Positions 26,034 to 53,597 of a stretch of 64,000 bases of DNA are shown here, piece by piece. Position 1 is the first letter of the stretch. Every line of letters begins with the position of its first letter. Position numbers and translations under genes: made by a program. Origin of the DNA: a virus (Duplodnaviria > Heunggongvirae > Uroviricota > Caudoviricetes); IMG/VR virus record IMGVR_UViG_3300029305_011445. One strand, given 5' to 3'. The notes under the pieces were generated by a model. It was not told the origin of the DNA and searched no databases. It was given only the letters and a program-made list of their open reading frames with translations.

Positions 26034-26086
26034 ATGATCCTCCTATACAAATTGTTAGACCTGATAGATATCAGGTCATAACAATA

Positions 26087-27865
26087 TCAATCCAATTTAA
26101 ATTTACGAACTTCATTTGTAAGTTCATCTGCAATCGCCTTATTATCCAATGCTGTTTTTTGAATTTCTGATACATCTGCATTTATCGCAGTTGTTGTATT
26201 TGCGATGCTGTTAACACCAGTTGTACTTTCTTCAATTGCAATATTGATCGCATTCATGTTTTCTAAGATCTTATGAATTGCCTGCTCAATATAATCCGTA
26301 GAATTGCAAAAAGCTTCCATCTGACGTCCCATTGTTTCAACATCTGTTTTATATGCAATACCTGTGTCTTTTAATTCATCGTATCCTTTCATTGCAACTT
26401 CATCTAAAAATGTAAGCATTCTTTCAGTTTGTTCGGCTAAAAGTTCTACAGCTGCAATTACTTCGTCGCTAACTTTTTTAATTTCATTCGCTGCATCCGC
26501 AGAAGTGTTTGCGAGTTTTCCAATTTCTGTTGCAACAACAGCAAATCCGCGACCGGATTGTCCGGCACGCGCGGCTTCGATACTTGCATTTAATGCTAAA
26601 AGATTTGTTTGGCTTGCAATTTCCAAAATATTCTCTGTTAATTTTGAAATTTGTGTTACAGCGTTGGAGCGTTCAAGACTTTCCTTGACATCAATTGTTA
26701 ATTGATCTGAAAGTTCTTTTGCTTTCGTAATATTTTCATCAACCTGTGACTCAATATTTGAAGCCTTTTTAACCGTTGCACGTGCGTCCATTTCACTCTG
26801 TTTTGCATATTTGGCAACATCGCCGGTTGTATCTGATACCTGTTTAATTAACGAACTAATTTCCACAATTGATGCACTCGTTTCTTCCATTGCAGCACTC
26901 ATCTGTTCCATTGTAGAAGAAACATCTGCGATTTCACTTTCTGAATCTGTAACCTTTTCTGTGATTGCAACTACAGAATCAGATAATTTAAGAGAATCAT
27001 CGCGAATACTAACCATAATAGCTCTAATATATGACAACAATGTGTTTACGTTTCCTGCAATTAATTCTAATTCATCGCCCGAATGAATATCTAAAGATTG
27101 TGTTAAGTCTCCGTTGTTGTTAGCAAGTTCACATATTTTTTCATTTACTTGGCGAATATTTTTAATGATGCCTTTTACGATTAAGCAAATAATTAATGAA
27201 TCAAATAGCAATGTTACAACTAGCACAAGAACCAATCTCGAAATCATTTGATATCTTATAGTCAAAATATTAGATGCGTCATAATCAATACATAATACTG
27301 CAGTTACATTTTCATCTGCATCAATAATTGGCTGATATACGGATAACAAATGTACATCATCTCCAAGATTTTTAATTACGGGGCTATTTGCTACAGTTCC
27401 GGAAAACGCTTTATTGATTAAATCAGAATCAACTAAATTCGTAGCAGCAGTTCCTACTTGTTTCGATGAATCAATATCGCTATTTAATCCATAAACAATT
27501 GAACCATTATTCGTTTTGTGTAAAGTATAAAACTGTTTCAAGTGTCCCTGTTCTAATAACATTTGTAGCGTTGTATTTATTGAAATAGCGTTTTCTTCAC
27601 TTAACAAGTTTTCATAATTAAGAGCTTCTGCGTCAATCAAATCTGACGCAATGGCCGCTATAGATTTTGCATTTTCAATTGCTAGATCACGATATTTATC
27701 GTTATAACCTTTTACGCTACTGTAACCAACTACAAAACAACCTGATATTACAACTAAAATAACAGGAACGAGTATTTTAAGTTGCAACGAAAATCGTCTT
27801 ACCTTTTGTTTTTCTTTTTTATCCCTCATTTTCTTTCTCTCCACTAAAAATTTTACTAAATTCAC
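26087..27865 (-). CDS. methyl-accepting chemotaxis protein (paralog)
   Basis: same architecture; [32 protein letters not shown]; start overlaps stop of upstream small ORF (ATGA). Confidence 0.85.
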
Positions 27866-28044
27866 TCACCTAATTCATATGTTACTTGTAACTGCACTTT
27901 ATTTTTAACAGCATTTTCGATTAACAGATTTAATATATCGCTTTTACTTAATCCGGTATCTTCATGCCATTTTTCTAACATTTTCATATTATCCGGCGTA
28001 AAACCAACACAGGTCTTAATAGATGCGTTTTGTTTTTTTCGCAT
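27862..28044 (-). CDS. small protein cotranscribed with sigma factor (possible RHH-like regulator)
   Basis: ATG 28044 with AGGAG RBS 14 nt after the sigma stop; 60 aa; [15 protein letters not shown] helix. Confidence 0.45.
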
Positions 28045-28058
28045 GCGTGTTCTCCTTT

Positions 28059-29102
28059 CTATAAAAACTGTTTCAATTCGGTATAAGCTTTTCCGGTTCG
28101 GCAAAACTTAATAAAACGAGCTTCTACTTGACGAACACGTTCCCTTGTGAGACCATGATAATCGCCAATTGCTTCGAGAGTCTGAATTGTACGGCCATGT
28201 AATCCGAATCTTTTATACAAGATGTCTCTATTTCGGTTAACATTTGCAGGATTGGTTCGCCCACGCTCAAGAAATCTCTCAATCAATTCATCAAATTTTT
28301 CTGCCAGTTCTTTGTTTTCAGCAACAGCACTAATATCAAAATTTTCATCTGCAATGAAATCAATCATTTCAGATGATTCATCAATATCAGTAGATATAGC
28401 GCGGTTTAACGAATCTGTGTTTGCATTAAAATACGCACTGATAATATTGTTATACTGAAAGTCATTACATCCGAGTTTTTCTACCACATATTCTTTCGGT
28501 GGTAGAACATTAGAATTTGTTTCATCTTGAAACTCTTTAACGACTCTTGCGTAACGATAGACTTGTTCACTCATATGAACAGGAATTCGGATAATTGTAT
28601 CACCATCCATAATCGCTCTTGTAATGGACTGGCGAATCCAATGATAAGCATAGGTTGCAAATTTGAACCCCTTATCCGGGTCGAAACGATCAATGGCTTT
28701 CAAAAGTCCAAAGTTTCCTTCCATAATAATGTCCAATTCTGTAAGAGTTTTAGTATGTTTCATATATTTTTTTGCAACATAAACAACAAGTTTTAAGTTG
28801 TGTAAAAAAATCTTTTCTCTTGCTTCTGTGTCGCCTTCTTTTGCTTTTCGTGCCAAGTCACAAACTTCTTCATTTGATAACAACTGGTATTTTGCGATTT
28901 CTTTTAAATAACCAGCCATGTGATCAGATAAGTAGTGAGACTGGAATTCAACGCTTTCTTCAACCTTTTTAGAAGAAAGTGATTCGATTTCTGATAATTC
29001 GTCATTGTTATTAGTTGCATTATATTCATATAAAGATTCGGTTTCAAAATTTCCCTGATCCAAATCCTCGTGCTCTAAAACAAATTCATTCGTTAATGTC
29101 AT
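28059..29102 (-). CDS. RNA polymerase sigma-70 family factor with ~100-aa acidic N-terminal extension
   Basis: region 2 DIIMEGNFGLLKAIDRFDPDKGFKFATYAYHWIRQSITRAI; region 4 LTRERVRQVEARFIKF; exact promoter motif 29146-29157 ~45 nt upstream. Confidence 0.85.
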   Translation of the reverse strand: MTLTNEFVLEHEDLDQGNFETESLYEYNATNNNDELSEIESLSSKKVEESVEFQSHYLSDHMAGYLKEIAKYQLLSNEEVCDLARKAKEGDTEAREKIFLHNLKLVVYVAKKYMKHTKTLTELDIIMEGNFGLLKAIDRFDPDKGFKFATYAYHWIRQSITRAIMDGDTIIRIPVHMSEQVYRYARVVKEFQDETNSNVLPPKEYVVEKLGCNDFQYNNIISAYFNANTDSLNRAISTDIDESSEMIDFIADENFDISAVAENKELAEKFDELIERFLERGRTNPANVNRNRDILYKRFGLHGRTIQTLEAIGDYHGLTRERVRQVEARFIKFCRTGKAYTELKQFL

Positions 29103-29282: not shown

Positions 29283-29300
29283 CTTGGAAGTACTTCCAAG
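29283..29300. promoter_or_regulatory. perfect 18-bp palindrome CTTGGAAGTACTTCCAAG plus three GTACAAAA repeats (29302-29372) in the sigma/parA divergent region
   Basis: seen directly; ~160 nt upstream of parA, in a 300-bp ORF-free region. Confidence 0.6.
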
Positions 29301-29462
29301 CGTACAAAAACAGTTAAAACGTACAAAAGGAAGTGCTTCGCATAGAACAAAACAAGGAGAAATGTACAAAAAGAAATATATTTAAAATATTCTTATTGCA
29401 TATAACTGAAATATCGCTTATAATTTTCACTGTTAAAAAACTTTTGCGGGGAGAAAAAAGAA

Positions 29463-30332
29463 ATGATTATTACAACAAATACATCAAAGGGTGGCGAAAC
29501 AAAAACAAGCAGTACTGTCACGTTCGGTTCAATATTAGCTGTTGCCGGATATAAAGTGTTACTTGTTGATTCTGATCCGCAGCAAAATTTAACATATTTA
29601 TGTGCGACAGAAGATACAAATGTGAACCCTCCAATTGTTATTTATGATTTACTATTGCGAAGTTCAGTTGATGATAGTGAGCTAAAAGATGCAATTGTGA
29701 CAACAAAAATAAAAAACATGGATATGATTCCAGCAAATGATAGTTTGTATTTAGCACCATATCATTTATACGACAAAGTAGTTCACGAAGGCGAGACACA
29801 AAGTATATTAAATTTACGAAACAACTTAATGCGCATTCAAGAAATATTCGAATATGATTACATACTTATTGACACTCCACCTACGAAATCATATGCAGTT
29901 AATGCAACACTTGCTGCAGCAGATTATGTTGTTACCGGTATTTCACCGGATAATTTATCGTGGCAGGGTTTATCTGCGATGATACAAGCAGTTGATGACA
30001 ATAATGTTACTTATGCAAGAGATACGCAAGTTGCAGGTGTATTTTTAACAAGAGTCAACCCTCGTACAAATCGATACCGAGAAATGAGTGCTGGTTACAA
30101 ACAACTCTTAGGAGATATTTTCTTAAATAGTTTTGTTCGTACAAATGAAGAAATGGGTAAAGCGAACTCTTATATGGTTCCTATTGTATTGTTTAATAAA
30201 CGATGCGAAGTGATCGAGGACTATATTAATGTAATGATTGAATTAGGATTGCTTGACACAAATGATTGGCATTATCTCGAATTGCGGAAGTATTTAAGAA
30301 GCAACAATAGGCAGAAAGAAAGCGAGGATTAA
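29463..30332 (+). CDS. parA: ParA/MinD-family partition ATPase
   Basis: deviant Walker A-like SKGGETKTSS near N-terminus, LLVDSDPQ, ParA-like size (289 aa), immediately followed by parB. Confidence 0.75.
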   Translation: MIITTNTSKGGETKTSSTVTFGSILAVAGYKVLLVDSDPQQNLTYLCATEDTNVNPPIVIYDLLLRSSVDDSELKDAIVTTKIKNMDMIPANDSLYLAPYHLYDKVVHEGETQSILNLRNNLMRIQEIFEYDYILIDTPPTKSYAVNATLAAADYVVTGISPDNLSWQGLSAMIQAVDDNNVTYARDTQVAGVFLTRVNPRTNRYREMSAGYKQLLGDIFLNSFVRTNEEMGKANSYMVPIVLFNKRCEVIEDYINVMIELGLLDTNDWHYLELRKYLRSNNRQKESED

Positions 30333-30335
30333 TAT

Positions 30336-31433
30336 ATGGCAGCAAACAGACAACCTATGATGCCGGGAATGACAAGTATCGGACAAATTGGAACAAGAGG
30401 TACCGGGTTAGGACAAATTCAGGCACAGAAAGCATCTGGTATCAATTATATTCCATACGATAATATTATCCCAAATAAGAAAAATAAACGATATGACCAA
30501 ATTGACATTGAATCGTTAAGTTATTCTATTGAAGATAGAGATTTGCTTCATAATTTAGTTGTTACGCCTTCCGAAACAAGTGGTATGTATGATTTAATAA
30601 GTGGTGAGCGAAGATGGCGCGCAATTGGACTGCTTAGAGATAGAAATCCAAAACGTTTTGAAGAATTATTTCCAGGTGGACTCATCCCATGTAAAGTTCA
30701 AGTACTCGATAATGTGGATGATGAAATTTCTTTGATAGTTGCAAACACTGAAGTTCGAAATATTAGTGTTAAAGATAAATTAAATGATGTAAGGCGGTTG
30801 GCAGAATTATACGCAATCAAATATGAAAATGAACCAAAGACAAATGTTTCTGAAATGATTGCAAAGCAATTAGCAATGTCAGAACGTCAGATTCGTAAAT
30901 ATATGAGTCTTGACAAACTAGTTCCAGAATTAATGCAAGCATTTGATGATGATATTTTAAATATCGAAGCAGCAAGTAAAATTGCTCTTCTAGGAGAGAC
31001 AGAACAATTGTATCTTGTTGATATATTAAACGAAACAGAAAAAATTACTGAAGATGATATTGTTGCTGCAAAGGCGTTACAGGTTCAAAAAGAGACTGCG
31101 TTAAAAGAAATCGATACAAAGCAGGAAGAAATTGCAGCATTAGAAGAAATGAAATCCATCGCAAAAACTACAGATGAAACTGAGTTCATTAATACTAGAA
31201 TTGAAGAACGTTTAAAAGCAATTGATGATACGAAGCAAAAATTATCTGATAGACAAATGCGAAAGCTTCGAAAAGTTGCGAAGGCTGGTAAAATTGTAGA
31301 TCAAACAACAGAAGCGATTGATAAACTCCAAAATATGATTGAACCAATCAAATCTGATACGACAATTATTCTTCGTCTTGAGATGCTACAAATGAAATTG
31401 AACCGATTGATTGAACAAGTAAAAAAAGAATAA
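30336..31433 (+). CDS. parB: ParB-family partition protein
   Basis: ParB/Srx N-domain GERRWRAIGLL; coiled-coil C-terminus; 3 nt after parA. Confidence 0.8.
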   Translation: MAANRQPMMPGMTSIGQIGTRGTGLGQIQAQKASGINYIPYDNIIPNKKNKRYDQIDIESLSYSIEDRDLLHNLVVTPSETSGMYDLISGERRWRAIGLLRDRNPKRFEELFPGGLIPCKVQVLDNVDDEISLIVANTEVRNISVKDKLNDVRRLAELYAIKYENEPKTNVSEMIAKQLAMSERQIRKYMSLDKLVPELMQAFDDDILNIEAASKIALLGETEQLYLVDILNETEKITEDDIVAAKALQVQKETALKEIDTKQEEIAALEEMKSIAKTTDETEFINTRIEERLKAIDDTKQKLSDRQMRKLRKVAKAGKIVDQTTEAIDKLQNMIEPIKSDTTIILRLEMLQMKLNRLIEQVKKE

Positions 31434-36577: not shown

Positions 36578-38455
36578 TTAAACAAGATCCGAATCACTAA
36601 AATCAAAGCCACGATCATTTTCAATAAAATCATCCATTGCATCTTCAATTGATTCAATCGTAATATCAGTTATTTCAGAAATTCCTCGTGCGGCTTCAAA
36701 TTCTTCCTCAAATTGTCTATCGTGTTCTTCTTCTAGCTCGGCGCCAGCTTCTGTTCTGGCGATGATTGGATCCGCGCCTTCTGGAACAATTGATGTACGT
36801 GGAGCGTCAAATACATCACGATCTTCAACTTTTGTTTTATTAATTTCAATATCATTTTTCTTTTGTTGAACCGCAACCTGAATAGCAGCAATATCGATAC
36901 GGGTATCTTTGATTGCATTTGGAACAATATTGAACATTGTTGGTTCTGCAAGTTTGTAATAAGTTTCTGCCTTACTTTGTTCATTTTGGATATTTTTCAT
37001 CCATATTTCAGTCTCATCTTTTTCTTTTAAGTCAAAAGTACGCTGAATTACATCTACTGTTCCAGGAATTCTTATTTCGCAAGAACGGTTTGATGTTTTC
37101 TCCGGATCGATATCATCAATATCCGGTTCGTCAATACGAACCATATCATTGCGCTCTAACTCAAAAGCTTCTTCCATGGCACCAACACATTCGTTAAAAT
37201 ACTGTTCCCTTAATGCGAATGATTTAAAATCTTGATATTCCACAGCTTCAACAAAAGTTTTAATATTTGCATATTTTGCAATAAGCATTTCGTCGTTTTT
37301 ATCAAGGTTAAGATATCCACTTTCTTCTTCACGAGCTTTATCTAATAATTCCTTGTAATCTTCCGACTCTAATTCTAAAATACCACATTCTTTTTCGATA
37401 GCGATTTCTGTTAATTTTCTGTATAAATCATAGCGCATTCCCATACAGCTATATTCGCGTCCGGAGATGGCCTTGTAATCACCAAGATTTTCCATCAGTT
37501 TTACAAATTCATCATACTGAGCCGCATCTTTAAGGTTATATGATTTAACAGCCATTTTATCAAGAATAGGTTCGCCCTTTTCGTCTAATTCGAAATAACG
37601 ATGATTGACAATAGAATTTCCGGTAAAAATAATTGCGTTTTTAAAGTTCTCAGACTGCGTTGTTGTTCCAACATTGTAAATTGCCAGTTGTTCGTAGCGT
37701 TCTCCATTTGATGCTTTGTAAATTGCCTGCTGCAACATTTCACGGGATTCGCTTCGTTCGTTAAAATAATCCGCAACCGAAGGATGACTTCGGAACAAAA
37801 TATAACGCTCCTTTAGTTTATCGAATTCACTTTTTTCAGAAAGATCTGTGCTAATCGCAAGTTCTGCTGGGATTGCAACACTAAACATGTTTGTTTCTTC
37901 GCTTAATGTCATGATACTCTTAATTTGCATTTCGTTGGCAATATCCTGATAAACCTTTGCATCAGTAAAGCTTTGGAATCGCATTTCAATCATATTGCAA
38001 TTTTTAAACTCTTTATTCGCTTCATCAATAGTTGGTGGTTGAGCTTCTTTGTATCTTTCGATAGTATCAGAAATAATTTCTTGAATTTTGTCACGATCAC
38101 CTTTTACAAGAATGACTTTTTCTCCATTTTCATCTAAAACAAATTCGCCGAACGCATCCTTCTGATATACGTTGTCCTTAAACTGAATTGTTGTAAGGTT
38201 TCTTTCACCGAAATTTTCAGCATTACCAAATTGAAATACGATGTTTTCTTCGTTTAATCTTGCAGCAATTTTACTTATTGCGTCTGTTGGAACATCTATT
38301 TGACCAATAGAACCACCTTTGTTGAAATACTCACCCAGTGGGCTATTTAATCCACCAAGTTTTAAAATAACAGCATTCGCAATACTAACAAATAATTGTG
38401 TGCCGGTTGTTACTGCATGTACGCCAAAATTTAATCCGAGTTGTTCACCTGCCAT
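36578..38455 (-). CDS. large hypothetical protein (625 aa), acidic C-terminus
   Basis: long ORF with promoter motif 38510-38521. Confidence 0.6.
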   Translation of the reverse strand: MAGEQLGLNFGVHAVTTGTQLFVSIANAVILKLGGLNSPLGEYFNKGGSIGQIDVPTDAISKIAARLNEENIVFQFGNAENFGERNLTTIQFKDNVYQKDAFGEFVLDENGEKVILVKGDRDKIQEIISDTIERYKEAQPPTIDEANKEFKNCNMIEMRFQSFTDAKVYQDIANEMQIKSIMTLSEETNMFSVAIPAELAISTDLSEKSEFDKLKERYILFRSHPSVADYFNERSESREMLQQAIYKASNGERYEQLAIYNVGTTTQSENFKNAIIFTGNSIVNHRYFELDEKGEPILDKMAVKSYNLKDAAQYDEFVKLMENLGDYKAISGREYSCMGMRYDLYRKLTEIAIEKECGILELESEDYKELLDKAREEESGYLNLDKNDEMLIAKYANIKTFVEAVEYQDFKSFALREQYFNECVGAMEEAFELERNDMVRIDEPDIDDIDPEKTSNRSCEIRIPGTVDVIQRTFDLKEKDETEIWMKNIQNEQSKAETYYKLAEPTMFNIVPNAIKDTRIDIAAIQVAVQQKKNDIEINKTKVEDRDVFDAPRTSIVPEGADPIIARTEAGAELEEEHDRQFEEEFEAARGISEITDITIESIEDAMDDFIENDRGFDFSDSDLV

Positions 38456-38663: not shown

Positions 38664-40319
38664 TTATACATTTTCGGCTCCTGCTGGTCGAATATCAATA
38701 ACCTGAATCTGAATCTGTGTATTACCGTTATAAACGTTTAATGAAATCTTGCCTAAAACATCTACTGTATCAGGAGTTCCCATTTCACGATAACTTTCAG
38801 CACCGCCAAACCAAACAAGTGGTGCATCGTTATTCATAAGTTTAATATGCTCTTTGGTTTCACCCATTGTAAACACATTTGTTACTGGCACATGATTGAA
38901 TCGAACCAATAACTCTGGATTACCTTGACCATATGGCTGATAACGGTTAATCTCTTTTGTCAAAGCTTTGATATCTGACAAAGTTCCATCGATATCGTAT
39001 TCAATCGAATCAATAACTTCCGGAACAGGAGCAGTAGCGTTAACTGCTGCAATAAATTCATCCAGTTTATCGCGCCGGAGTGTAATACCACAAGCACCAG
39101 CATGTCCACCGTAAGTGTCGATAAGATCAGCATGCTGATTTAAGATTTCAAGGATGTTTGTGCTTAAAACAGAACGTCCGGAACCTTTAACCAATTCATC
39201 CGAGCCGGTTTTTGGAGCAAGTACAATACTTGGTCGATTGTACTTTTCTGTTAATTTACCGGATACAAGCCCGGCGATGCCAGAAGTACAATATTCATCA
39301 AGAATAACCAGAAAATGATCGTTTTCGTGACCAATCATAAGATGAGATGCTCGCTCAACAGCTTCTTTTTCTTGCTGCTTACGTTCTTTATTCCGTTCAA
39401 TTGCAAGTTTACACTGCTCAATAAGCTCCGGAGATTCTTCTGTTGCGGATAAAAGATTCATGATAAATCTAGGCCCGTCATCGTAAAGTCGACCGGATGC
39501 ATTAATGATTGGCGCAAGACCAAATGCGATACCGATAGAAGAGATGTATTCCATTTTCATTTCAGACATCAATGTCTTTAATCCAACAGTACCAAATCCT
39601 TTTTCCATCGCATCGATACCTTCTTTAACGATAAGTCTATTATCGCCTGTCAAAGATACTACATCGCCAATTGTGCCAATAGCTGCGAAACATGCCATCT
39701 TTTTACGAAGAATCCATTTGTATTTTGGACTCATCCATGGGCATTTATCTAACAACATATTTGCAAATCGAAATGTAATACCAGCTCCGCACAAATCATC
39801 AAAATCACCACCGGTTACATGTGGATCCACAATAACATTTGCATCAGGTAAAATCCATTCACCAGTAATTTCGTCTTTCGGCGGAGTGTGATGATCTAAA
39901 ATAATCACATCCATTCCGAGTTCACGAGCTCTTGCAACAGGCTCGACTGCAGCGATACCATTGTCCTGCAAAACCAAAAGTTTCACACCTTTTCCATGAT
40001 ACCATTCGATGTGATTAGTTTTTACTCCGAACCCATCAGTAAATCGTTTCGGTGGATAAATGATACAGTTGTTAATGTGTAATGCTGGAATAAAAATTTT
40101 ATCTTGGCCTAACGAATTAACTCCATCGCAGTCATAATCACCATGCATTGCAATTATGTTACCGTTTTTTGCGTGGTACAGGAAAAGATCTGTTGCTTCA
40201 TCCAATCCTGGATACTGGTATTTGTGTTCATCGAAACGTAATGTTGCGGCATCAATACCAGTATTAAATTGTACGATACGCCCAATATCTGTTTCGTTTG
40301 TTTTCTTGATCCATTTCAT
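38664..40319 (-). CDS. DHH/DHHA1-family phosphoesterase (RecJ-like exonuclease or NrnA-like)
   Basis: HGDYDCDGVNS (DxD), ILDHHTP (DHH), YGGHAGACG (GGGH of DHHA1). Confidence 0.75.
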   Translation of the reverse strand: MKWIKKTNETDIGRIVQFNTGIDAATLRFDEHKYQYPGLDEATDLFLYHAKNGNIIAMHGDYDCDGVNSLGQDKIFIPALHINNCIIYPPKRFTDGFGVKTNHIEWYHGKGVKLLVLQDNGIAAVEPVARARELGMDVIILDHHTPPKDEITGEWILPDANVIVDPHVTGGDFDDLCGAGITFRFANMLLDKCPWMSPKYKWILRKKMACFAAIGTIGDVVSLTGDNRLIVKEGIDAMEKGFGTVGLKTLMSEMKMEYISSIGIAFGLAPIINASGRLYDDGPRFIMNLLSATEESPELIEQCKLAIERNKERKQQEKEAVERASHLMIGHENDHFLVILDEYCTSGIAGLVSGKLTEKYNRPSIVLAPKTGSDELVKGSGRSVLSTNILEILNQHADLIDTYGGHAGACGITLRRDKLDEFIAAVNATAPVPEVIDSIEYDIDGTLSDIKALTKEINRYQPYGQGNPELLVRFNHVPVTNVFTMGETKEHIKLMNNDAPLVWFGGAESYREMGTPDTVDVLGKISLNVYNGNTQIQIQVIDIRPAGAENV

Positions 40320-40371
40320 AATTTCACTCTCCCTTCTTTGTTCTCGTTTGTGATAGGATCACTGTTACGAA

Positions 40372-40383
40372 AATAAATATGGT
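40372..40383 (-). promoter_or_regulatory. consensus promoter motif
   Basis: exact copy upstream of DHH gene. Confidence 0.6.
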
Positions 40384-40384
40384 A

Positions 40385-40960
40385 TGTGGCACATTATCAC
40401 AATATAACATGTCATTTGTATGGTTTAAACATAACAATGAATTAAACATACATCATATGTACGGCCTTATCTGTAACAATAATATATTTATATAAAAATA
40501 TATTTATATAAATAATATATTGTATCAGAATTAATACTGTAATCAAAATAATATTGTAACAAATAATAATTGTAACAATAATAATACTGAATCAATAATA
40601 TTGTTTAACTATAGTTACAATGTATCTAGTATTACATAGTAAACAGGATTTATTATAATCTCGTAACAGTAATAATACCGAACCAATAATATTGTTTAAC
40701 TATAGTTACAATGTATCTAGTGTTACATAGTAAACAGGATTCATTATAATCTCGTAACATTAGTAATACTGAATCAATACAACACTGTAACAATAATAAT
40801 ACTGAACCAATAATACTGTTACGTAACTATAGTTACAATGTATCTAGTGTTACATAGTAAACAGGATTCATTATAATCTCGTAACAACAATAATACTGTT
40901 ACAGAATAATACTGAATCAGATATTATTTGTTACAAGATAAGGTCCATTTTTGGGTGCGG
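40385..40960. repeat. complex tandem-repeat region: three ~115-125-bp direct repeats plus >=10 TGTAACA/TTGTTACA heptads
   Basis: units starting ~40587, ~40676, ~40800 share ...aatattgtttaactatagttacaatgtatctagtgttacatagtaaacaggattcattataatctcgtaaca; each contains 12-bp palindrome TAACTATAGTTA. Confidence 0.8.
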
Positions 40961-41031
40961 CGAAGTAAATTTTTCAAATTCGGCAATTTGTACAAAAAAA
41001 AAAAGAGACTCAATCGAGTCTCCCTTATAAA

Positions 41032-41136
41032 TTATTTTTCTTCATCATCTTTTACAGTAATGATGATCTGCTGTGGTAATAAGCCTAAAAGCGGGCTCAC
41101 TTCTTCCCCAACAGTTCTTTTGATTTCAATCTGCAT
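41032..41136 (-). CDS. 34-aa micro-protein
   Basis: track ORF trimmed to ATG 41136 (AAGGAG RBS) because promoter motif 41169-41180 lies inside the longer ORF; MQIEIKRTVGEEVSPLLGLLPQQIIITVKDDEEK; hairpin terminator after stop. Confidence 0.4.
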   Translation of the reverse strand: MQIEIKRTVGEEVSPLLGLLPQQIIITVKDDEEK

Positions 41137-41168: not shown

Positions 41169-41180
41169 AATAAATATGGC
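41169..41180 (-). promoter_or_regulatory. consensus promoter motif
   Basis: GCCATATTTATT upstream of micro-ORF 41032..41136. Confidence 0.5.
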
Positions 41181-44008: not shown

Positions 44009-44028
44009 TTAAAAAGGTGGGTTTAAAA

Positions 44029-45639
44029 ATGAGGGAAAAGAAAAGCAGAAAATCGTTATTGTCTTCGTTTAAGACACAATTACTGGCAATGAGTATTTTA
44101 CCAATGTTATTTTCGTTATTGGTTGTTCTTATTGTAGCAATTACTGGGATGAGAAATCTTGCACAAACTATGATGTATGACAAATTTGAATGTACATCAA
44201 TTTTAGTGCAAAACTCCTCTCAGGATACAATTGATGCGGAAATGAAGGCGATTGCAGAAGAACAGGATATGATACTTTCATTCTTGAAGCAGGGAAAGAT
44301 TGTTTATTCAACCAATCTGGAATTAATTGGATCTGCTTCCGATATTACCGAAACAGAACATTCATTAGTAAGACATACAGTTAATAACATTGAATATTTA
44401 TCAGCAACTTTTGAAATGCGGGATGGATCGACATTACTTGTTAGTGAAGAACGTAATACTTATTTAAATTTATTATCTCCGTATCAAGTGAAAATGTTTT
44501 GGACCGGCGTTGCGATGTTAATCAGTGCGATCATAATTATCTTCGTATTAAGCACTCGTATTGCAAAAATACTTGGGGCTGTAAGAGATATCGTTCATGA
44601 GGTTGGTAGGGGTAATCTTAATAATGATTATGATGAGAAATTATTATCTCGAAAAGATGAAATTGGTTCTATTTATCGAAATACAAAAAGCATGGATGAA
44701 ATGTTTATGGACGTTGTGTCAAAAATGCGATCAACGATTAATGGATTAAATGATTCTGCAGAAACTATTAAAGTATCTGTAGATACTTGTCTTGAAAATA
44801 CGAACGGAATAGAATCAGCTGTTGAAGAAGTTGCGCAAGGTGCCTCACAACAAGCAAATGAGTGTACAACCGGAACAGGTGCTACTGCAGAAATTAATCA
44901 GTTTATAGATGGTGTTGTTATCGAATCAAATGGGCTTAAAGCGGTTTCTGATAACATGTTCAGATTGAAAGATGTATCTCTTGAATCATTAAATCAACTG
45001 GTTGAGCATAATGAGGACAACACAATTGCAATAAAAGATATTGCGAAACAGATTGCAGAAACGAATGAATCGATCACAAATGTAATTGAAATCATTCAAA
45101 AGATTGAACAAATTAGTAGCCAAACAAATTTACTTTCGTTAAACGCGTCTATTGAAGCAGCAAGAGCTGGAGAAGCAGGACGTGGTTTTGCGGTTGTAGC
45201 GAGTGAAATTGGGAAACTTGCGGAACAAACATCAGCGTTGACAAAAGAAATTACAGATCATGTTGCAATTCTTAATTTAAATTCGGAAAATTCATTGCAG
45301 ATGATGTCCGGAGTTAGTGAGAGCGCTATCGCACAGTCGAAATTAATTACGTTGACCAAAGATGGTTTCTCTGAATTAGATCAAAATATCAATCAATCTG
45401 TTTCTAGCATTAATGCCATCGCTAAAGCAATGGATGAGTTATCTACTCAGTCTGCAAATTTAGTTGATACATTATCAAGTTTATCTGCAATCTCTGAGGA
45501 AAATGCAGCATCCGCAGAAGAGTGCTCTGCATCTGTTGTATCTCTTAATGGCACCATGGAAGATTTGAAGCAAAAGGTTAATGTGCTCGAAGGGAATAAA
45601 AATGCATTAATTAAACTTGTGGAATTTTTCCATGTTTAA
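44029..45639 (+). CDS. methyl-accepting chemotaxis protein
   Basis: start moved to ATG 44029 (AAAGGTGG RBS); TM helix, [35 protein letters not shown]. Confidence 0.85.
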
Positions 45640-49137: not shown

Positions 49138-49816
49138 TGTAATAGTGCAAAATATTGAAACAGAGTTACCTTTGGTTACAGGCCGAACAATGTTAGGCCT
49201 TCTTATGGTTCAGGGCGAATTACAAGCTGGATATGATCGGTACAAAGATGAAGAAGTAGAAGAAGTGTTGATGCGCGTAAAAGAATATTCGCAATGGGCA
49301 TATGATCAAGGTCTTATTTCTGAACAAAATAAGATGTTATCTGTGCATCAAGCAGAATGTATCAAACAGATCAATGCATTGCAATCCACGCATTCATTCG
49401 GAGATATTTTAGGTCCGTTACAAAGTTTTATGTATGAAGATGGAGCAAATGTAAATAGGGTCCTTTCGCGTCAAGAGTGGTCGGCATTTCATTCTTGTGT
49501 ATGTGACATTTTAATTAACATGACAAGCCCGAACCGAAAAGAGCGTTTTAACGAACTAATTTGTGACGTAAGAAGTAGTATCGTATTATATTGTTTCAAT
49601 ATATGGCTGGAACAAAATATTGATGAATGTAAAGATCTTCGATACGGTGAGCAATTACGAAAATGGGTAAGTAGTAAAATGGGGATTAAAGTTCGAGATA
49701 TTATGGATGAGGCGGTGGCGAAAGCGATAGCTCATAAAGATATAAAATATATTTTGTTTGCAGGAGATGTTTTGCCAGATATTGTTCGAAATAAGAATAA
49801 TGATTACGTAGAATAA
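49127..49816 (+). CDS. hypothetical protein
   Basis: 229 aa, overlaps previous ORF by 11 nt. Confidence 0.5.
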   Translation: MENNVIVQNIETELPLVTGRTMLGLLMVQGELQAGYDRYKDEEVEEVLMRVKEYSQWAYDQGLISEQNKMLSVHQAECIKQINALQSTHSFGDILGPLQSFMYEDGANVNRVLSRQEWSAFHSCVCDILINMTSPNRKERFNELICDVRSSIVLYCFNIWLEQNIDECKDLRYGEQLRKWVSSKMGIKVRDIMDEAVAKAIAHKDIKYILFAGDVLPDIVRNKNNDYVE

Positions 49817-49825
49817 TATTTGATT

Positions 49826-49874
49826 AAGGTATATACTTTATAAGGTATATACCTTTTATAAAGTATATATAGTG
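49826..49874. repeat. left inverted-repeat arm bounding the ori-like module
   Basis: AAGGTATATACCTTttatAAAGTATATATAGTG (49842-49874) is the reverse complement of 51211-51244 (CACTATATATACTTcgtgcgAGGTATATACCTT) apart from the 4-6 nt spacer; AAGGTATATACCTT is itself palindromic. Confidence 0.75.
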
Positions 49875-50002
49875 AAACTGTACTCTTTCGGGTCGGATGG
49901 TTTTTCTGCCTTTTATTCCGACACGTAAGATTGTCTTTTAATAATTTTGGTTTCGAAGTTTTAAGTGTCAGTACTAACTGGCACTTTTTCTTTACCCGTT
50001 AT

Positions 50003-50071
50003 CTCTGGTTTCGGAACATCTCTGGTTTCGGAGTACTTCTGGTTTCGGGGTATCTCTGGTTTCGGGGTATA
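50003..50071. repeat. 4x tandem 17-18-nt repeat (a)TCTCTGGTTTCGGrgTA
   Basis: tctggtttcgg at ~50003, 50020, 50038, 50055. Confidence 0.8.
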
Positions 50072-50242
50072 TCTTATCTCAACATTCCTTATCCCTAATA
50101 TACCTTTCTTCAAATGTATCACTATGCCATATCTTTGTTTCAAACAATTTTGGGACAGTAAATTCTCGCATCAAGAAATGTTCGAAGCAGTAGTATTGCA
50201 GCGCACTTGTTTCGAGACTTTTTCGGTTTCATATATCATTTC

Positions 50243-50890
50243 TACATCACTTAACTGAGGCAGTTATGTTGATATCAGTACTACTTTATTCTTTAATACA
50301 CCATGTAGCTGATGTAATTTGAAACCAGAATTGTTATAGATGCATCATCTAGTTGGGGTGGTTATTTTTGTTTCGCGGATGTTTACGAAGCCAAATACCT
50401 CATGTTAGTGATGTAGTTCTGAAACTAAGGTTATATTAGATACATCATCTAGCTGGGGTAGTTATAATTATTGATACAGAATATTTCGGATCAAATATAT
50501 CATCTAAGTGGGGTAGTTTTGGAGCCGGAACATCCATAGATACATCATCTAACTGGGGTAGTGGAGTATTGATTCTATAATTTTTCTGATATAAATACAT
50601 CATGTAGCTGAGGCATTTCTGGTTTCGTATTATCTTCTCTACCTCGTCTTATTGGTGTGATTGGCTATTAAATACATCATCTAGCTGATGTAGTTGTCAT
50701 GAGATAATGATAAATTTAGCACCATGATATATCACGTAGCTGAGGTAGTTTGAAACCAGAATTATTATAGATACCTCATCTAACTGGGGTAGTTATATTT
50801 CGGTACAGAGGAAATTTTTAATAAATACATCACGTAGATGAAGTAGTACGTACCAAAATAATAGGTACCTCATTTTGCCGGGTTAATTAT
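50243..50890. repeat. iteron-like array: ~13 degenerate copies of a ~24-bp element (consensus aTACATCAtcTAgCTGgGGTAGTt) at 43-77-bp spacing
   Basis: copies at ~50243, 50296, 50339, 50395, 50440, 50494, 50539, 50593, 50670, 50727, 50772, 50823, 50866; two subtypes (..TAGCTGATGTAGTT with CATCA/TGATG inverted arms, and ..TAaCTGGGGTAGTT); longer unit TGAAACCAGAATTrTTATAGATrC repeated at ~50320 and ~50750. Confidence 0.8.
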
Positions 50891-51210
50891 CACTCGAAAC
50901 CAGCATTCCCAGTTTCAGATATATTTGCTAGAAGAATTGATTGTATAGTGCATGTGGTGTTGTTCGCTAGAAGAGTTATATCGAAACAAGAGGTGTTGCA
51001 AAAAAAAAAAAAGAATTATGTGTGCAGGTAAGATTTTGAGAAAAGGAAAAGTGAGAAAGGGATGTTATTTTAAAACCAGATAGATTAGTTTGAAAGATGG
51101 CGGTGCAAAATACGGTGCACCTAAAAAAAACAAAAAAAAAGACGAATCCGCTTCGGAAATCGGTGCAGGAAAAGCGCACCGAAAAGAACCCGAAACGAAA
51201 GGTACATGTT

Positions 51211-51263
51211 TCACTATATATACTTCGTGCGAGGTATATACCTTGTAAAGTATATACCTTATT
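51211..51263. repeat. right inverted-repeat arm bounding the ori-like module, immediately upstream of the relaxase promoter
   Basis: see left arm; followed by a second AAAGTATATACCTT copy and then promoter motif 51280-51291. Confidence 0.75.
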
Positions 51264-51279
51264 TTTCGATAAATCACAT

Positions 51280-51291
51280 ACCATATTTATT
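51280..51291 (+). promoter_or_regulatory. consensus promoter motif
   Basis: exact copy upstream of relaxase gene. Confidence 0.6.
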
Positions 51292-51328
51292 CCCGGAACA
51301 AAAATTAATAGAAAGGTTGGTGCAGAAA

Positions 51329-52630
51329 ATGAGAGCACATGAACATACTGGAACAAGAAATAATACAACAAACTTTACTGCAAAACCTGTAAAACTTGCG
51401 CATCGAAATCAAATAAAGGGTATGACAATCCATAATGGTCGACTTGAAGCTGAAACAGGGAAGGATCTTCGTGAAAATGTAGATGAAAAAAGAACTCATT
51501 TAAACGACGTTTTGATTGGTGACAAAACAATGGATCTGTATTACGAAACTATTAAACGAATTTCCGGGAAAGATATATCAAAAGAAGATGTTGAAGATTT
51601 AGAATTTGAAAATATCAAATTTGCAAATGGAAGAAAAGTTCGAAAAGATGCAAATGTGCTGGAATGCCAATCCCAGTATCCAGGAAAAATGGTACACGCA
51701 AAACTTGATGAATACGGAAAGGTTCAGATTTTACCAGAAGGAACTGAATTTTCAGATGCTGATATCGATAAAGGCGGAGACGATGTTTTTTCGTATCCAG
51801 CAGATATGGAAGAATTTAATCGTTGGAAAGAGTTAACAATGAATTATATGGCGGAACGATTTGGTGGCAGAGAAAATATCATTCAAGCGGTATGTCATAT
51901 GGATGAAAGTATTCCCCACATCCATGCATATATCGTTCCGATGTATCACGACGTCAAGAGTAATACAGATAAACTTTCTTTGAAACATTATCTATCCGGG
52001 CCAAGATGCTTTGATGAATTACAAACCGAGTATGCAGCGTATATGAGTGAATTAGGTTATCGCCGCGGAACAAAAAGTTCTCCGGTTAAAGTAACCCCTC
52101 AGACAGCCACTCAGTTTCGAAACAGTGCTGCACGCGTACTATCTACAGTTCCAGACTCCCCTACTGCGGCAAGACAATTTGTAAACGAATTAAGTGACCA
52201 AGAATTATACGAAGAACTAAGAGGAGCTGGCGTGCAATTATATATTGCAAAAGATAAAGTCAAGAAAACAGAAACAGCATTGGCAAGCAGCAATCGTATT
52301 ATTACAAAACAATCTGATACAATCAAGAAAAAAGATGAAGAAATTAAACATCTCAAAGAACAGATTGAAGAACAAAAAAGAGAACTTGCAAAAGCACAAC
52401 TTCAAGCTCAACGTAGATTATGCGAAAAACAAGGGCTTCAAAAATGTGATGACAAAGAAGCTGTTGATGTGTATTTGCAATTTCAGGAACAATTAGTTGA
52501 AGATGGATTAGAGGTATTAAAGCTCGCCGGTCTCGACATCAATTTAAACGGTATTGATGATCGTGTCGAAAATTACATTGATAAAGACAATAATGGTATC
52601 GATGATAGACTAGAAGATAATAATAATTAA
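51329..52630 (+). CDS. MobV/Pre-family relaxase (plasmid recombination/mobilization enzyme)
   Basis: start moved to MRAHEH (ATG 51329, AAAGGTTGG RBS); motif III HMDESIPHIHAYIVP (HxDExxPHxH); N-terminal LAHRNQ (HxxR-like); C-terminal coiled coil. Confidence 0.8.
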   Translation: MRAHEHTGTRNNTTNFTAKPVKLAHRNQIKGMTIHNGRLEAETGKDLRENVDEKRTHLNDVLIGDKTMDLYYETIKRISGKDISKEDVEDLEFENIKFANGRKVRKDANVLECQSQYPGKMVHAKLDEYGKVQILPEGTEFSDADIDKGGDDVFSYPADMEEFNRWKELTMNYMAERFGGRENIIQAVCHMDESIPHIHAYIVPMYHDVKSNTDKLSLKHYLSGPRCFDELQTEYAAYMSELGYRRGTKSSPVKVTPQTATQFRNSAARVLSTVPDSPTAARQFVNELSDQELYEELRGAGVQLYIAKDKVKKTETALASSNRIITKQSDTIKKKDEEIKHLKEQIEEQKRELAKAQLQAQRRLCEKQGLQKCDDKEAVDVYLQFQEQLVEDGLEVLKLAGLDINLNGIDDRVENYIDKDNNGIDDRLEDNNN

Positions 52631-52667: not shown

Positions 52668-52854
52668 TATCTTTTGAAGAATAAGAGAATCCATACCGAA
52701 CTGGATCCAGACGTTCTGTCTTGCGGGTTTCTTTTGAAAACGGATAATCAAATGCAGAACACCATTCTCGTGTAGAAACAACACGGTTTGTTTTTATACA
52801 TTTTAAAAGCCCTGATGATTTGTTACAAAAACGACACATTATACAACTATCCAT
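52645..52854 (-). CDS. small Cys-rich protein overlapping 3' end of sigma gene (candidate anti-sigma or partner)
   Basis: ATG 52854 overlaps sigma stop (ATGGATAGTTGTATAA coupling); CIMCRFCNKSSGLLKC; the bidirectional terminator hairpin 52638-52667 is placed after this ORF, not directly after the sigma gene. Confidence 0.4.
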   Translation of the reverse strand: MDSCIMCRFCNKSSGLLKCIKTNRVVSTREWCSAFDYPFSKETRKTERLDPVRYGFSYSSKDKPLQRIP

Positions 52855-53597
52855 TGATTAACCTCCTTACTCTGTTTCATCTTGTTTAAAGCTTTTCTGT
52901 GAATCTGAGAAATTCTGGATTCGGTTACATTAAGAACCAGCGCAATTTCCGCAATTGTCATATCTTCGTAATAAATCATTCGAATCACGTCGCGTTCTCG
53001 GTCCGTAAGTTTGCTCATTGCTAAATCCAGTATGCGATGTAAATCTTCTTGTAGCGCATTTAATTCACAAACATTAAATGAATCATGACCCAGTATATCA
53101 AATGAATACTCATCACCATCTGGTGAGAATAAAATTGCATCCAAAGATGATGCCTCTTCTAAAGTAGCTAATTGTTCCAAATTCGTAAATTCTTTACTTG
53201 AAAGTTTACTAACAGATAACAACTGTTGACGAGTATAATTAGGACCGTATGTATCTTGTGCTATAATACAAAATTGTTTGAATCGCTTTTGTTGATCCCT
53301 GGTACTACGTTTAATCTGATCAAAAGTTCTTAAGTTATCAACAATAGACCCTTTGATCCTATGAGATGCATAAGTTTCAAATTTAACATCCAAAGACGGG
53401 TTGTATTTTTCAATCGCGTCAAGAAGACCTAAAATACCGAAGCTTTCATAATCCGACTGTTCTAAAAGATACGAAGCCGTTTTTGCATATAATTGTGCAG
53501 CCAAAAGCTTTACTAGACCGGCATATTCTTTTATCAATAATTCCCGATACCGGGGTTCTCCGGTCTCTTTATATAATTCAAGATTCGTTTTATCCAT
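52839..53597 (-). CDS. FliA/WhiG (sigma-28) family sigma factor
   Basis: 252 aa; region 2 ILGLLDAIEKYNPSLDVKFETYASHRIKGSIVDNLR; region 4 MTIAEIALVLNVTESRISQIHRKAL; variant motif AATAAATATGTT at 53625-53640. Confidence 0.8.
   Translation of the reverse strand: MDKTNLELYKETGEPRYRELLIKEYAGLVKLLAAQLYAKTASYLLEQSDYESFGILGLLDAIEKYNPSLDVKFETYASHRIKGSIVDNLRTFDQIKRSTRDQQKRFKQFCIIAQDTYGPNYTRQQLLSVSKLSSKEFTNLEQLATLEEASSLDAILFSPDGDEYSFDILGHDSFNVCELNALQEDLHRILDLAMSKLTDRERDVIRMIYYEDMTIAEIALVLNVTESRISQIHRKALNKMKQSKEVNQWIVV

What the first reader, a model, noticed from the sequence alone, without database searches (positions are those of the whole stretch)
40385..40960. 600-bp heptad-rich tandem-repeat region between DHH nuclease promoter and a micro-ORF
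Three ~120-bp direct repeats each carry the perfect palindrome TAACTATAGTTA and multiple (T)TGTAACA heptads. Further TGTAACA/TGTTACA copies are packed at 7-11-nt spacing at 40440-40590 and 40890-40930. Dense heptad arrays in direct and inverted orientation are how RHH-type centromere-binding proteins recognise parS (pSM19035 omega-like), and the element encodes a small RHH-like ORF (27862..28044). Alternatives are a second iteron origin, a phage pac site or a recombination hotspot.
Basis: seen in the sequence. Interest (0 to 1): 0.6.

Follow-up and report, generated by a model that had tools for sequence, protein, structure and literature searches.

The report
Origin-like repeat array beside RecJ-like gene

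Summary
The repeats are real. Three long direct repeats (spaced 91 and 127 nt) each carry TAACTATAGTTA. About 17 short units (TAYTG[T/A]A[A/T]CA+ATAATA) sit 14-17 nt apart, not 7-11. A 44-nt A/T-only dyad is the least stable duplex in the 64-kb window. The block lies between the promoter of a RecJ-like DHH operon and the terminator of a 34-aa ORF, on a ≥136-kb ParAB/MobV/sigma-encoding element with no close relative in plasmid, phage or genome collections. Relatives whose DHH is only 43-48% identical keep the same design (short-repeat arrays plus the locus's longest A/T-only run) at the head of the DHH/p625 operon, but with diverged repeat sequences. The closest relative (75%) lacks it at that site. 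ParB's centromere is probably elsewhere: a GGAAGTACTTCC palindrome upstream of parA, present in 1-10 copies in close relatives. The array unit also occurs at a fixed offset after the element's own promoter box (CCATATTTAT, 34 exact copies), and this matching appears lineage-specific. Best reading (about 0.4): an iteron-plus-unwinding-element origin or origin-control hub whose binding protein is unidentified. Rivals are an operator or titration array, an RHH-type centromere, and neutral expansion. GC skew gives no independent support.

The parts
38664..40319 (-). RecJ-like DHH/DHHA1/RecJ_OB gene; first gene of the operon that reads away from the array
   Evidence: Pfam hits to DHH, DHHA1 and RecJ_OB. 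TIGR00644 recJ E 1e-98, below the trusted cut-off. Homologues at 43-75% identity are found in all related loci.
36578..38455 (-). p625: fast-evolving, acidic protein of unknown function; second gene of the operon and a member of the only other protein family that travels with the array
   Evidence: A chain of blastp hits links it to L004_550, L015_609, L081_634, L008_690, L012_581 and L009_518. It has no Pfam, PHROG, NCBIfam or PDB hit. Only 5 hits were found among 1.8e9 representative proteins.
40358..40382 (-). DHH-operon promoter: element-specific box CCATATTTAT (40373-40382 on the sense strand) followed by one array-type unit, TTTCGTAACAG
   Evidence: One of 34 exact boxes in the window. 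The unit-like site scores 12.9 and 7.4 with the array PWM.
40470..40529 (.). A/T-rich 60-nt dyad flanked by two inverted cores (CTGTAACA ... TGTATCAG). It contains the 44-nt A/T-only run 40478-40521 and is the candidate DNA-unwinding element
   Evidence: Inverted repeat I2, 30-nt arms with no gap. DNA fold -11.2 kcal/mol, z = -4.9. Longest A/T-only run and least stable duplex in 64 kb. Equivalent runs of 22-65 nt occur in relatives.
40520..40600 (+). First block of five short units (starts 40520, 40537, 40554, 40570, 40587), 14-17 nt apart
   Evidence: TRF period 17 x4.1; core map; unit PWM.
40601..40660 (+). 60-nt module 1: TTTAACTATAGTTACAA palindrome, TGTATCTAG, TATTACATAGTAAACA, and a sigma-70-like promoter ATTACA-17-TATAAT (40631-40659)
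40661..40691 (+). Two short units (starts 40661 and 40678)
40692..40751 (+). 60-nt module 2, with promoter-like GTTACA-17-TATAAT at 40722-40750
40752..40818 (+). Five short units (starts 40752, 40769, 40785, 40802, 40816). The last forms the 10-bp palindrome GTTACGTAAC
40819..40878 (+). 60-nt module 3, with promoter-like GTTACA-17-TATAAT at 40849-40877
40879..40940 (+). Last four short units (starts 40879, 40896, 40912, 40928) at the right edge of the array. An independent contig (L002) ends at 40961
41001..41026 (-). Intrinsic terminator of the small ORF (11-bp stem followed by a T run)
41032..41136 (-). 34-aa ORF (MQIEIKRTVGEEVSPLLGLLPQQIIITVKDDEEK), convergent with the array's promoter-like sites. 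A small ORF also sits at this position in L004
   Evidence: Called as a gene in L001; sequence. L004 has a 39-aa ORF at the same position. No family hit.
41170..41179 (-). Element-specific promoter box of the small ORF

Best explanation
The block (I call it Region D) is a conserved cis-acting hub of a family of large plasmid-like elements from gut Clostridia. It combines an array of about 17 short dyad-core binding sites, recently enlarged by a threefold tandem duplication, with an easily melted A/T-only dyad. I read it as a replication origin or origin-control locus of the iteron-plus-unwinding-element type. In this model an element-encoded sequence-specific protein coats the 14-17-nt units, and the strain opens the adjacent 44-nt A/T-only dyad, where the host replisome is loaded. 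Single copies of the same site at the +1 region of many of the element's own promoters, including the DHH/p625 operon that starts 50 nt from the array, would couple gene expression to occupancy of the array, as operator-like iteron copies do in iteron plasmids. Shown: the anatomy, the conservation of the architecture, the link to the DHH/p625 operon head, the sharing of the motif with promoters, and the separateness from the ParB centromere. Inferred: protein binding, unwinding, and initiation of replication. The binding protein is unidentified; the fast-evolving p625 family is the only candidate that travels with the array, and it has no recognisable fold.
For: (1) Anatomy typical of iteron origins: at least 17 same-orientation repeats 14-17 nt apart next to the longest A/T-only run and least stable duplex in 64 kb. 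The region is non-coding, has no Rfam match and the repeats have no significant fold. (2) The architecture is conserved while the repeat sequence diverges. In L008 (DHH 44% identical), L012-14 (43%), L015 (44%) and L081, the longest A/T-only run of each ~21-kb locus (43, 22, 65 and 50 nt) lies 150-750 nt upstream of DHH and is flanked by arrays of 13-18-nt units. L008 also has AACTATAGTT palindromes and three 56-nt repeats. In L009 the same structure (53-nt A/T-only run plus TGTAAC cores) has moved and sits upstream of a p625-family gene. Conserved design with fast-changing specificity is what co-evolving protein/site pairs show. (3) It is not the ParB centromere, because separate parS-type palindrome clusters lie upstream of parA in every lineage. 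(4) Rep_3 with its own iterons exists only in L081/82. It is absent from the window and the other loci, so it is not a backbone gene, whereas Region D is. (5) The array sits at the only large divergence of gene polarity in the window: 50 of 55 genes point away from it. (6) The unit recurs at a fixed offset (+9/10) after the promoter box (Mann-Whitney p=7e-9). The match is lineage-specific: window promoters score 2.2 with their own PWM versus -0.1 with the L014 PWM (p=0.0017), and L014/12 promoters match their own array (p=2.6e-5) but not the window's (p=0.13, n.s.).
Against: No initiator gene was identified in 64 kb, and the rest of the ≥136-kb element was not examined. There is no DnaA-box cluster. 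The GC-skew minimum at 40-41 kb is only a coding-strand effect: counter-oriented genes have the same coding-strand skew (0.176 vs 0.181). In L081 gene polarity does not switch at the bona fide Rep_3 origin nor exactly at Region D, so polarity is weak evidence. L081 has both a Rep_3 origin and Region D, so Region D need not be the vegetative origin. The closest relative (L004-7, DHH 75% identical) has no array at the syntenic site or within 10 kb. The 14-17-nt spacing is not helically phased as in classical iterons. The three long copies are 95% identical, so they are a recent amplification that says nothing about constraint. A second repeat-rich backbone region next to MobV (49.8-51.2 kb) is also a possible origin.
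Confidence: 0.4

Rival explanations
1. Operator or titration hub with no direct role in replication. The units bind a global transcription factor of the element, or its own sigma-RNA polymerase, which also sits at the +1 region of many element promoters. The array would buffer or sense the concentration of that factor and control the adjacent DHH/p625 operon.
For: The unit motif is shared with the promoter +1 region at a fixed offset, and the match is lineage-specific. The DHH promoter carries a unit. The array always lies at the head of the DHH/p625 operon. The element encodes at least two sigma factors and uses one highly conserved promoter.
Against: Operators rarely need about 17 sites spread over 500 nt, or a 44-65-nt A/T-only dyad that is conserved across lineages. 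L004 keeps the DHH promoter without the array. The covariation test rests on only 11 promoters in the second lineage (p=0.098 for the paired test).
Confidence: 0.25
2. A centromere (parC/parS-like) bound by a small RHH protein, in the manner of omega of pSM19035 or ParR.
For: It is a dense array of short repeats in one orientation. An RHH-like 60-aa ORF exists at 27862-28044. A ParA ATPase is present. The motif also occurs at promoters, as omega sites do.
Against: The ParAB operon has its own conserved palindrome cluster that varies in copy number. The cores are 14-17 nt apart, not contiguous heptads. The RHH-like ORF lies 12 kb away and has no orthologue in L008, L012/14, L015 or L081, which do have arrays. 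The array is 5-9 kb from parAB in all lineages. A centromere does not explain the conserved A/T-only dyad.
Confidence: 0.12
3. A largely neutral A/T-rich minisatellite: slippage or duplication of promoter-derived sequence in a variable intergenic junction, with no function of its own.
For: The three long copies are 95% identical, so the amplification is recent. The array is absent from the closest relative. The segment between the DHH promoter and the MCP gene differs between the window and L004, and one contig ends exactly at the array edge. The units resemble promoter cores.
Against: The same composite design recurs at the same operon head in five lineages with only 43-48% protein identity and with different repeat sequences. 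The array is identical in two independent samples.
Confidence: 0.1
4. A phage packaging (pac/cos) site or an accessory part of oriT.
For: Terminase small subunits and relaxosome accessory proteins bind repeat arrays. In L015 the array and the MobV-proximal repeats share one 3-kb non-coding region.
Against: The window and all relatives' loci lack terminase and structural genes. The array is 10 kb from MobV in the window, and MobV has its own conserved repeat region.
Confidence: 0.05

Closest known systems
Iteron-type theta origins (pSC101, R6K gamma, F oriS, P1 oriR, RK2 oriV; Rep_3/RepA-type initiators). Comparison from own knowledge, plus the Rep_3 origin seen here in L081
   Same: Multiple same-orientation direct repeats next to an A/T-rich unwinding element. 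Related copies of the site lie in promoter regions. The repeat sequence diverges fast between relatives.
   Different: No Rep gene is adjacent or anywhere in the 64-kb window. The units are 14-17 nt apart rather than 17-22-bp repeats in helical phase. The units are interleaved with 60-nt modules. There are no DnaA boxes. The A/T-only element is a perfect-type dyad. L081 has true Rep_3 iterons (TAGTCTTTTA) in addition to this array.
Transcription-coupled phage origins: T7 primary origin (tandem phi1.1A/B promoters plus an A/T-rich stretch) and T4 oriF/oriG (middle promoter plus downstream unwinding element). Own knowledge, not tested
   Same: Promoter-type sequences of the element's own transcription system lie next to an unwinding element, and the element encodes its own sigma factors and one dominant promoter.
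   Different: The units lack the CCATATTTAT box itself. Their polarity points away from the A/T-only dyad in the window. No priming transcript has been shown.
omega/parS of pSM19035 (inc18) and ParR/parC of R1 or pSK41: RHH centromere and operator arrays. Own knowledge
   Same: Arrays of short repeats upstream of promoters, a possible dual operator/cis-site role, and an RHH-like small ORF on the element.
   Different: Omega sites are 7-10 contiguous 7-bp heptads, whereas here the cores are 14-17 nt apart. The cognate small protein is not linked to or co-conserved with the array. A separate ParB-type centromere exists.
ParB-parS and F sopC (tandem 43-bp repeats, each with a 16-bp inverted repeat). 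Own knowledge
   Same: Tandem long repeats that each carry a palindrome (TAACTATAGTTA; TGTTACATAGTAAACA has parS-like outer arms).
   Different: The palindrome that co-varies with this ParB lineage is GGAAGTACTTCC upstream of parA, not the array motifs.
'Hodor' gut Bacillota megaplasmids, whose predicted oriV is a large A/T-rich non-coding region next to Rep_3 (PMC12934698)
   Same: Large uncultured gut Bacillota plasmids with ParA/ParB and a long A/T-rich non-coding putative origin.
   Different: Hodors are 211-389 kb and are defined by Rep_3, ParM/StbA, sortases, a T4SS and an MOBH-like relaxase. The paper mentions neither DHH/RecJ nor MobV. The window has MobV and no Rep_3. Membership was not tested beyond this.

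Membership tests
Iteron-type plasmid origin | Three or more direct repeats (iterons) of one sequence family in the same orientation | tested here: met
   17 units with consensus TACTGTAACAATAATA, 14-17 nt apart. AATAATAYTG occurs 8 times in the region and once elsewhere.
Iteron-type plasmid origin | An adjacent A/T-rich DNA-unwinding element | tested here: met
   A 44-nt A/T-only run at 40478-40521, the least stable duplex in the window, conserved in relatives. Actual unwinding was not testable.
Iteron-type plasmid origin | A cognate initiator (Rep) gene next to the iterons | tested here: not met
   No Rep family was found by Pfam, NCBIfam or PHROGs in the flanking ORFs. tblastn with the L081 Rep_3 finds nothing in the window. 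The neighbours are RecJ-like DHH and the unknown p625.
Iteron-type plasmid origin | Supports autonomous replication; the replication bubble or copy-number peak maps there | not testable with these tools
   Needs cloning, 2D gels or read-depth profiles. GC skew is uninformative here.
omega-type (RHH) heptad centromere/operator | Seven or more contiguous 7-bp repeats | tested here: not met
   Core spacing is 14-17 nt.
omega-type (RHH) heptad centromere/operator | A cognate RHH protein encoded with the par/regulated genes and co-inherited with the sites | tested here: inconclusive
   p60 is RHH-compatible, but its CopG matches are not significant. It lies 12 kb away. An orthologue was found only in L076, and none in four array-bearing relatives.
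ParB-parS centromere | A palindromic site that co-varies with the ParB lineage, usually clustered near parAB | tested here: not met
   That description fits TTGGAAGTACTTCCAA (29284-29299), which has 3 and about 10 copies in relatives with 76% and 73% identical ParB, and lineage-specific palindromes in L012/14 and L015. The array motifs occur only in the array.
Known structured RNA (Rfam) | A match to a covariance model, or a significant fold | tested here: not met
   No hit with E<0.6. Repeat folds have z between +0.2 and -1.4.
Phage pac/cos site | Adjacent terminase or packaging genes | tested here: not met
   No phage structural or terminase families in the window or the relatives' loci. The rest of the element was not seen.

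The most novel reading that the evidence does not exclude
Region D is a new kind of origin or control hub built from tandem mimics of the element's own promoter core (the 3' end of the -10 box plus the +1 region) placed beside an unwinding dyad. It would be read by the element's own transcription machinery or by a factor that marks every promoter, so that replication (or copy-number sensing) and global transcription of a sigma-encoding megaplasmid family share one recognition code. That code co-evolves between array and promoters, and the orphan p625 family may be the missing initiator.
Probability: 0.15. Interest if true: 0.75.

Novelty: new variant of a known kind. Interest (0 to 1): 0.45.

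Why it matters
The element belongs to a widespread family of 130-290-kb extrachromosomal elements from gut Clostridia that I could not find described. Relatives occur in dozens of human, ruminant and other metagenome assemblies. Its replication system is unknown. Pinning down a conserved cis hub, together with its separate parS cluster, its MobV-proximal repeat region and a single dominant promoter, gives concrete parts for building vectors, for predicting incompatibility and copy number, and for assigning such contigs in metagenomes. If the shared code between array and promoters holds up, it would be an unusual direct coupling of transcription and replication control on a plasmid.

Tried and rejected
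(1) GC skew as evidence for an origin. The cumulative minimum falls at 40-41 kb, but counter-oriented genes have the same coding-strand skew as co-oriented ones, so I rejected it as independent evidence.

(2) DNA similarity searches of 38-43 kb against PLSDB and INPHARED found nothing. Searches for DHH relatives in GTDB genomes and IMG/VR also found nothing.

(3) A DNA probe for two TAACTATAGTTA palindromes 75-105 nt apart returned 53 metagenome loci, almost all from one unrelated A/T-rich sample. It also hit chromosomal arrays in a rabbit-gut Clostridia MAG. None was related to the element, and the source contigs themselves were not in that collection.

(4) The ParB-centromere reading, suggested by the parS-like outer arms of TGTTACATAGTAAACA, was rejected after I found the conserved parA-proximal palindrome cluster.

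(5) The idea that the three sigma-70-like promoters (10/12 matches) inside the modules drive a conserved transcript was rejected, because such promoters are absent or sporadic in the relatives' arrays. There is no Rfam hit, and the downstream small ORF is not toxin-like.

(6) Searches for an initiator found nothing. p625, p692, p370 and p143 have no hit in Pfam, PHROGs, NCBIfam or PDB, whether searched by sequence or by profile. The word-indexed homologue search found only a fragment of p625 itself, and the exhaustive search found 5 hits with no annotation.

(7) The annotated megaplasmids with the nearest DHH (R. albus pRUMAL01 and B. proteoclasticus pCY360, 30% identity) have no array near that gene.

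(8) Cluster-member look-up gave no accession or organism.

(9) Copy-to-copy comparison of the long repeats cannot show constraint because they are 95% identical.

Full report
OBSERVATION. The region 40385-40960 is non-coding and has 24% G+C against 34% for the window. It lies between the promoter of a RecJ-like DHH gene (38664-40319, minus strand; Pfam DHH, DHHA1 and RecJ_OB; TIGR00644 E 1e-98) and the terminator (41001-41026) of a 34-aa ORF (41032-41136, minus strand).

The repeats are real. Three long direct repeats lie at 40594-40701, 40685-40792 and 40812-40919, with TRF periods of 91 and 127. In register they are identical in 95% of columns. Each carries TAACTATAGTTA, which occurs nowhere else in 64 kb. 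TGTAACA/TGTTACA occurs 8 times against 0.33 expected.

First, the elementary unit is a 14-17-nt repeat, TAYTG(T/A)A(A/T)CA plus ATAATA. There are 17 clear copies in one orientation, spaced 14-17 nt apart, so they are not heptads at 7-11 nt. The long repeat is a recent triplication of [17-nt unit][14-nt unit][60-nt module]. Second, the left end holds a 60-nt A/T-rich dyad (40470-40529; z = -4.9). Its 44-nt A/T-only run is the longest in the window and the least stable duplex at the 40-, 100- and 300-nt scales. There is no Rfam match, and the repeats do not fold better than shuffled sequence.

THE ELEMENT. The window is part of a contig of at least 136-158 kb. It encodes ParA and ParB (29463-31433), two sigma-70-family factors, three MCPs, UvrD, PhoH/PIN, a Pnkp/RNA-ligase protein, a PARP-like protein, RecU and a MobV relaxase (51206-52630). 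No phage structural genes were found. It has no close relative in PLSDB, INPHARED, GTDB genomes or IMG/VR. The nearest annotated DHH genes, at 30% identity, are on rumen Clostridia megaplasmids. The region is 100% identical in two independent samples.

Almost every gene is preceded by one promoter. CCATATTTAT occurs 34 times exactly against 0.41 expected, always upstream of a gene on its sense strand. Its extended consensus is ttTTGyaaa-N~10-aCCATATTTATT-yTGwAwCAAAAt. The same box, (C/A)CATATTTA(T/G/A), is used throughout the related elements.

COMPARATIVE EVIDENCE. Homologues of the DHH protein define a family of contigs up to about 290 kb. The shared backbone is: MobV, a repeat-rich non-coding region, Region D, DHH, a fast-evolving large ORF (the p625 family), ParB/ParA, and a sigma factor.

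Four lineages with DHH only 43-44% identical (L008, L012-14, L015) or ParB 48% identical (L081) have the same design upstream of DHH. The longest A/T-only run of each locus (43, 22, 65 and 50 nt) is flanked by arrays of 13-18-nt units, but the unit sequences differ. L008 has TATAACTATAG units, AACTATAGTT palindromes and three 56-nt repeats. L012/14 have TTAGAATACAAAAC x~20. L015 has TTTGTAACATATA. In L009 the structure sits upstream of a p625-family gene instead of DHH. So the array travels with the head of the DHH/p625 operon. The closest relative (L004-7, DHH 75% identical) lacks it at the syntenic site and within 10 kb, and the segment to the right of the DHH promoter differs between the two elements.

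WHAT IT IS NOT. It is not the ParB centromere. A perfect 16-bp palindrome, TTGGAAGTACTTCCAA, lies upstream of parA (29284-29299). Relatives with 76% and 73% identical ParB have 3 and about 10 copies of GGAAGT(A/G)CTTCC at the same place. More distant lineages have their own palindrome clusters there: TTTGAACTAGTTCAAA in L012/14 and GGGTCACTGAGTGACCC in L015. None resembles the array motifs.

Its best sequence and fold matches are to CopG, though not significant, and the AF2 model shows a strand plus two helices. It is 12 kb away, however, and has no orthologue in four array-bearing relatives.

GC skew does not help. The cumulative minimum at 40-41 kb disappears as evidence once coding strand is accounted for. 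The remaining polarity signal (50 of 55 genes point away from the array) is weakened by L081, where polarity switches neither at the bona fide Rep_3 origin nor exactly at Region D.

THE PROMOTER LINK. A PWM built only from the array units is enriched at a fixed offset (+9/10) after the promoter box. The median best score is 3.95 against -1.05 for random positions (p=7e-9). It also exceeds upstream controls (p=4e-7) and antisense controls (p=0.005). The DHH promoter itself carries TTTCGTAACAG.

In L012/14 the sequence after the box is GGATAACAAAAC, which resembles that lineage's own array unit. In a reciprocal test, window promoters fit the window array better than the L014 array (p=0.0017). 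L014/12 promoters fit their own array (p=2.6e-5 against random) but not the window's (p=0.13). The paired test in the second lineage is underpowered (n=11, p=0.098). This suggests that one factor reads both the array and the promoter +1 sites, or that the arrays are built from promoter-core sequence.

INTERPRETATION. The best-supported reading (about 0.4) is an origin or origin-control hub of the iteron-plus-unwinding-element type whose binding protein is unknown. It is a backbone feature, it combines a binding-site array with the most meltable DNA, and its design is conserved while its specificity drifts. The only canonical initiator seen in the family (Rep_3 in L081/82, with its own TAGTCTTTTA iterons) is lineage-specific.

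Several points count against this reading. No initiator was found. There are no DnaA boxes. The array is absent from L004. It coexists with a Rep_3 origin in L081. And there is a second candidate region next to MobV.

The rivals are an operator or titration array for a global factor (0.25), an RHH-type centromere (0.12), a neutral promoter-derived minisatellite (0.10), and a pac site or oriT accessory (0.05). The three sigma-70-like promoters in the modules are one amplified feature and are not conserved in relatives.

COMPARISON AND NOVELTY. The region works most like iteron origins. A possible parallel is the promoter-plus-unwinding-element origins of T7 and T4 (own knowledge, untested here). 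It fails the membership test for iteron origins on the adjacent Rep gene. It fails the tests for omega-type and ParB-type centromeres on site geometry and on covariation. The recently described Hodor gut megaplasmids (PMC12934698) are a different class. I found no description of this element family. I rate it a new variant of a known kind, with moderate interest. The promoter-mimic reading would make it considerably more interesting if confirmed.

Noticed in passing
whole window (e.g. 156, 1511, 2912 ... 61212); also L004, L008, L012/14, L015, L081: One element-specific promoter precedes nearly every gene. CCATATTTAT occurs 34 times exactly against 0.41 expected, always on the sense strand 25-60 nt upstream of the start codon. 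Its extended consensus is ttTTGyaaa-N~10-aCCATATTTATT-yTGwAwCAAAAt. The box is conserved across the whole family, and the element encodes at least two sigma-70-family factors (28059-29102, 52839-53597). The box resembles the CATA...T -10 elements of sporulation sigma factors (own knowledge, untested).
   Followed up: partly
window 49816-51205; L008 4162-6050; L009 6843-7781; L011 834-2163; L081 18574-19825: A second conserved repeat-rich non-coding region lies upstream of the MobV relaxase. It contains AAGGTATATACCTT palindromes (49817-49870 and again at 51225-51245), a 17-nt tandem repeat TATCTCTGGTTTCGGAG x4.4 (50000-50074), and about 13 dispersed hairpin-like units ATACATCATCTAGCTGGGGTAGTT (50225-50870). 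It is a candidate oriT or ssi region, or an alternative origin.
   Followed up: partly
window 29284-29299 (plus a degenerate copy near 29327); L078 1175-1306; L076 8290-8970: A probable ParB centromere: the palindrome TTGGAAGTACTTCCAA upstream of parA. It has 3 and about 10 copies in relatives with 76% and 73% identical ParB. Other lineages have different palindromes at the same place. parA itself appears to have a host-type TTGCAT-17-TATAAT promoter (read from the sequence; it did not reach the threshold of my promoter scan) rather than the element-specific box.
   Followed up: yes
window 27862-28044 (-): A 60-aa ORF just downstream of the sigma gene looks RHH-like. Its best sequence and fold matches are to CopG (not significant), with a weak Pfam DnaB_2 hit. 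An orthologue (58% identical) sits at the same position in L076. Its target is unknown.
   Followed up: partly
L081 1531-3468 (also L082): One relative carries a canonical Rep_3 initiator with about 9 TAGTCTTTTA iterons and a 27-nt A/T-only run, in addition to the DHH-proximal array. It is either a multi-replicon element or evidence that the array is not the vegetative origin.
   Followed up: partly
window 40961 / L002 contig end; L004 9486-10000: An independent contig (L002) ends exactly at the right edge of the array. In the 75% relative the array, the lipoprotein gene, DUF975 and a 102-aa ORF are all missing between the DHH promoter and the MCP gene. The right flank of the DHH promoter is therefore a variable junction.
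   Followed up: partly
L071 1-330, L074 1440-1740, L075 5830-6200 (rabbit-gut Clostridia MAG Lapin-017 bin20): Several intergenic loci, chromosomal at least for L074 (next to ArgRS, Dus and RadC), carry arrays of 14-bp palindromes ATAACTATAGTTAT and ATTACAATAGTAAT, each followed by TAAAAC. The core matches the window's palindrome but the context is unrelated. Whether this reflects a shared host factor or coincidence is unknown.
   Followed up: partly
window 36578-38455 (-) and homologues in L004, L008, L009, L012, L015, L081: The p625 family consists of large, very acidic proteins that evolve quickly (17-28% identity between lineages). Only 5 hits were found among 1.8 billion representative proteins, with no recognisable domain. 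It always lies in the operon headed by the array.
   Followed up: partly
window 12725-13510 (inside ORF 12179-13573): A 237-nt tandem repeat x3.3 (80% matches) inside a coding region corresponds to four DUF4379 treble-clef zinc-finger domains.
   Followed up: no
window 40350-40362: The small palindrome GTGAT-AGG-ATCAC lies in the 5' UTR of the DHH gene, between the unit-like +1 site and the ribosome-binding site.
   Followed up: no
window 10841-12070, 14736-16937, 24279-27865, 44017-45639: The cargo is unusual for a plasmid-like element: a PARP-catalytic-domain protein, a Pnkp-like kinase/phosphatase/RNA-ligase fusion, and three methyl-accepting chemotaxis proteins.
   Followed up: no
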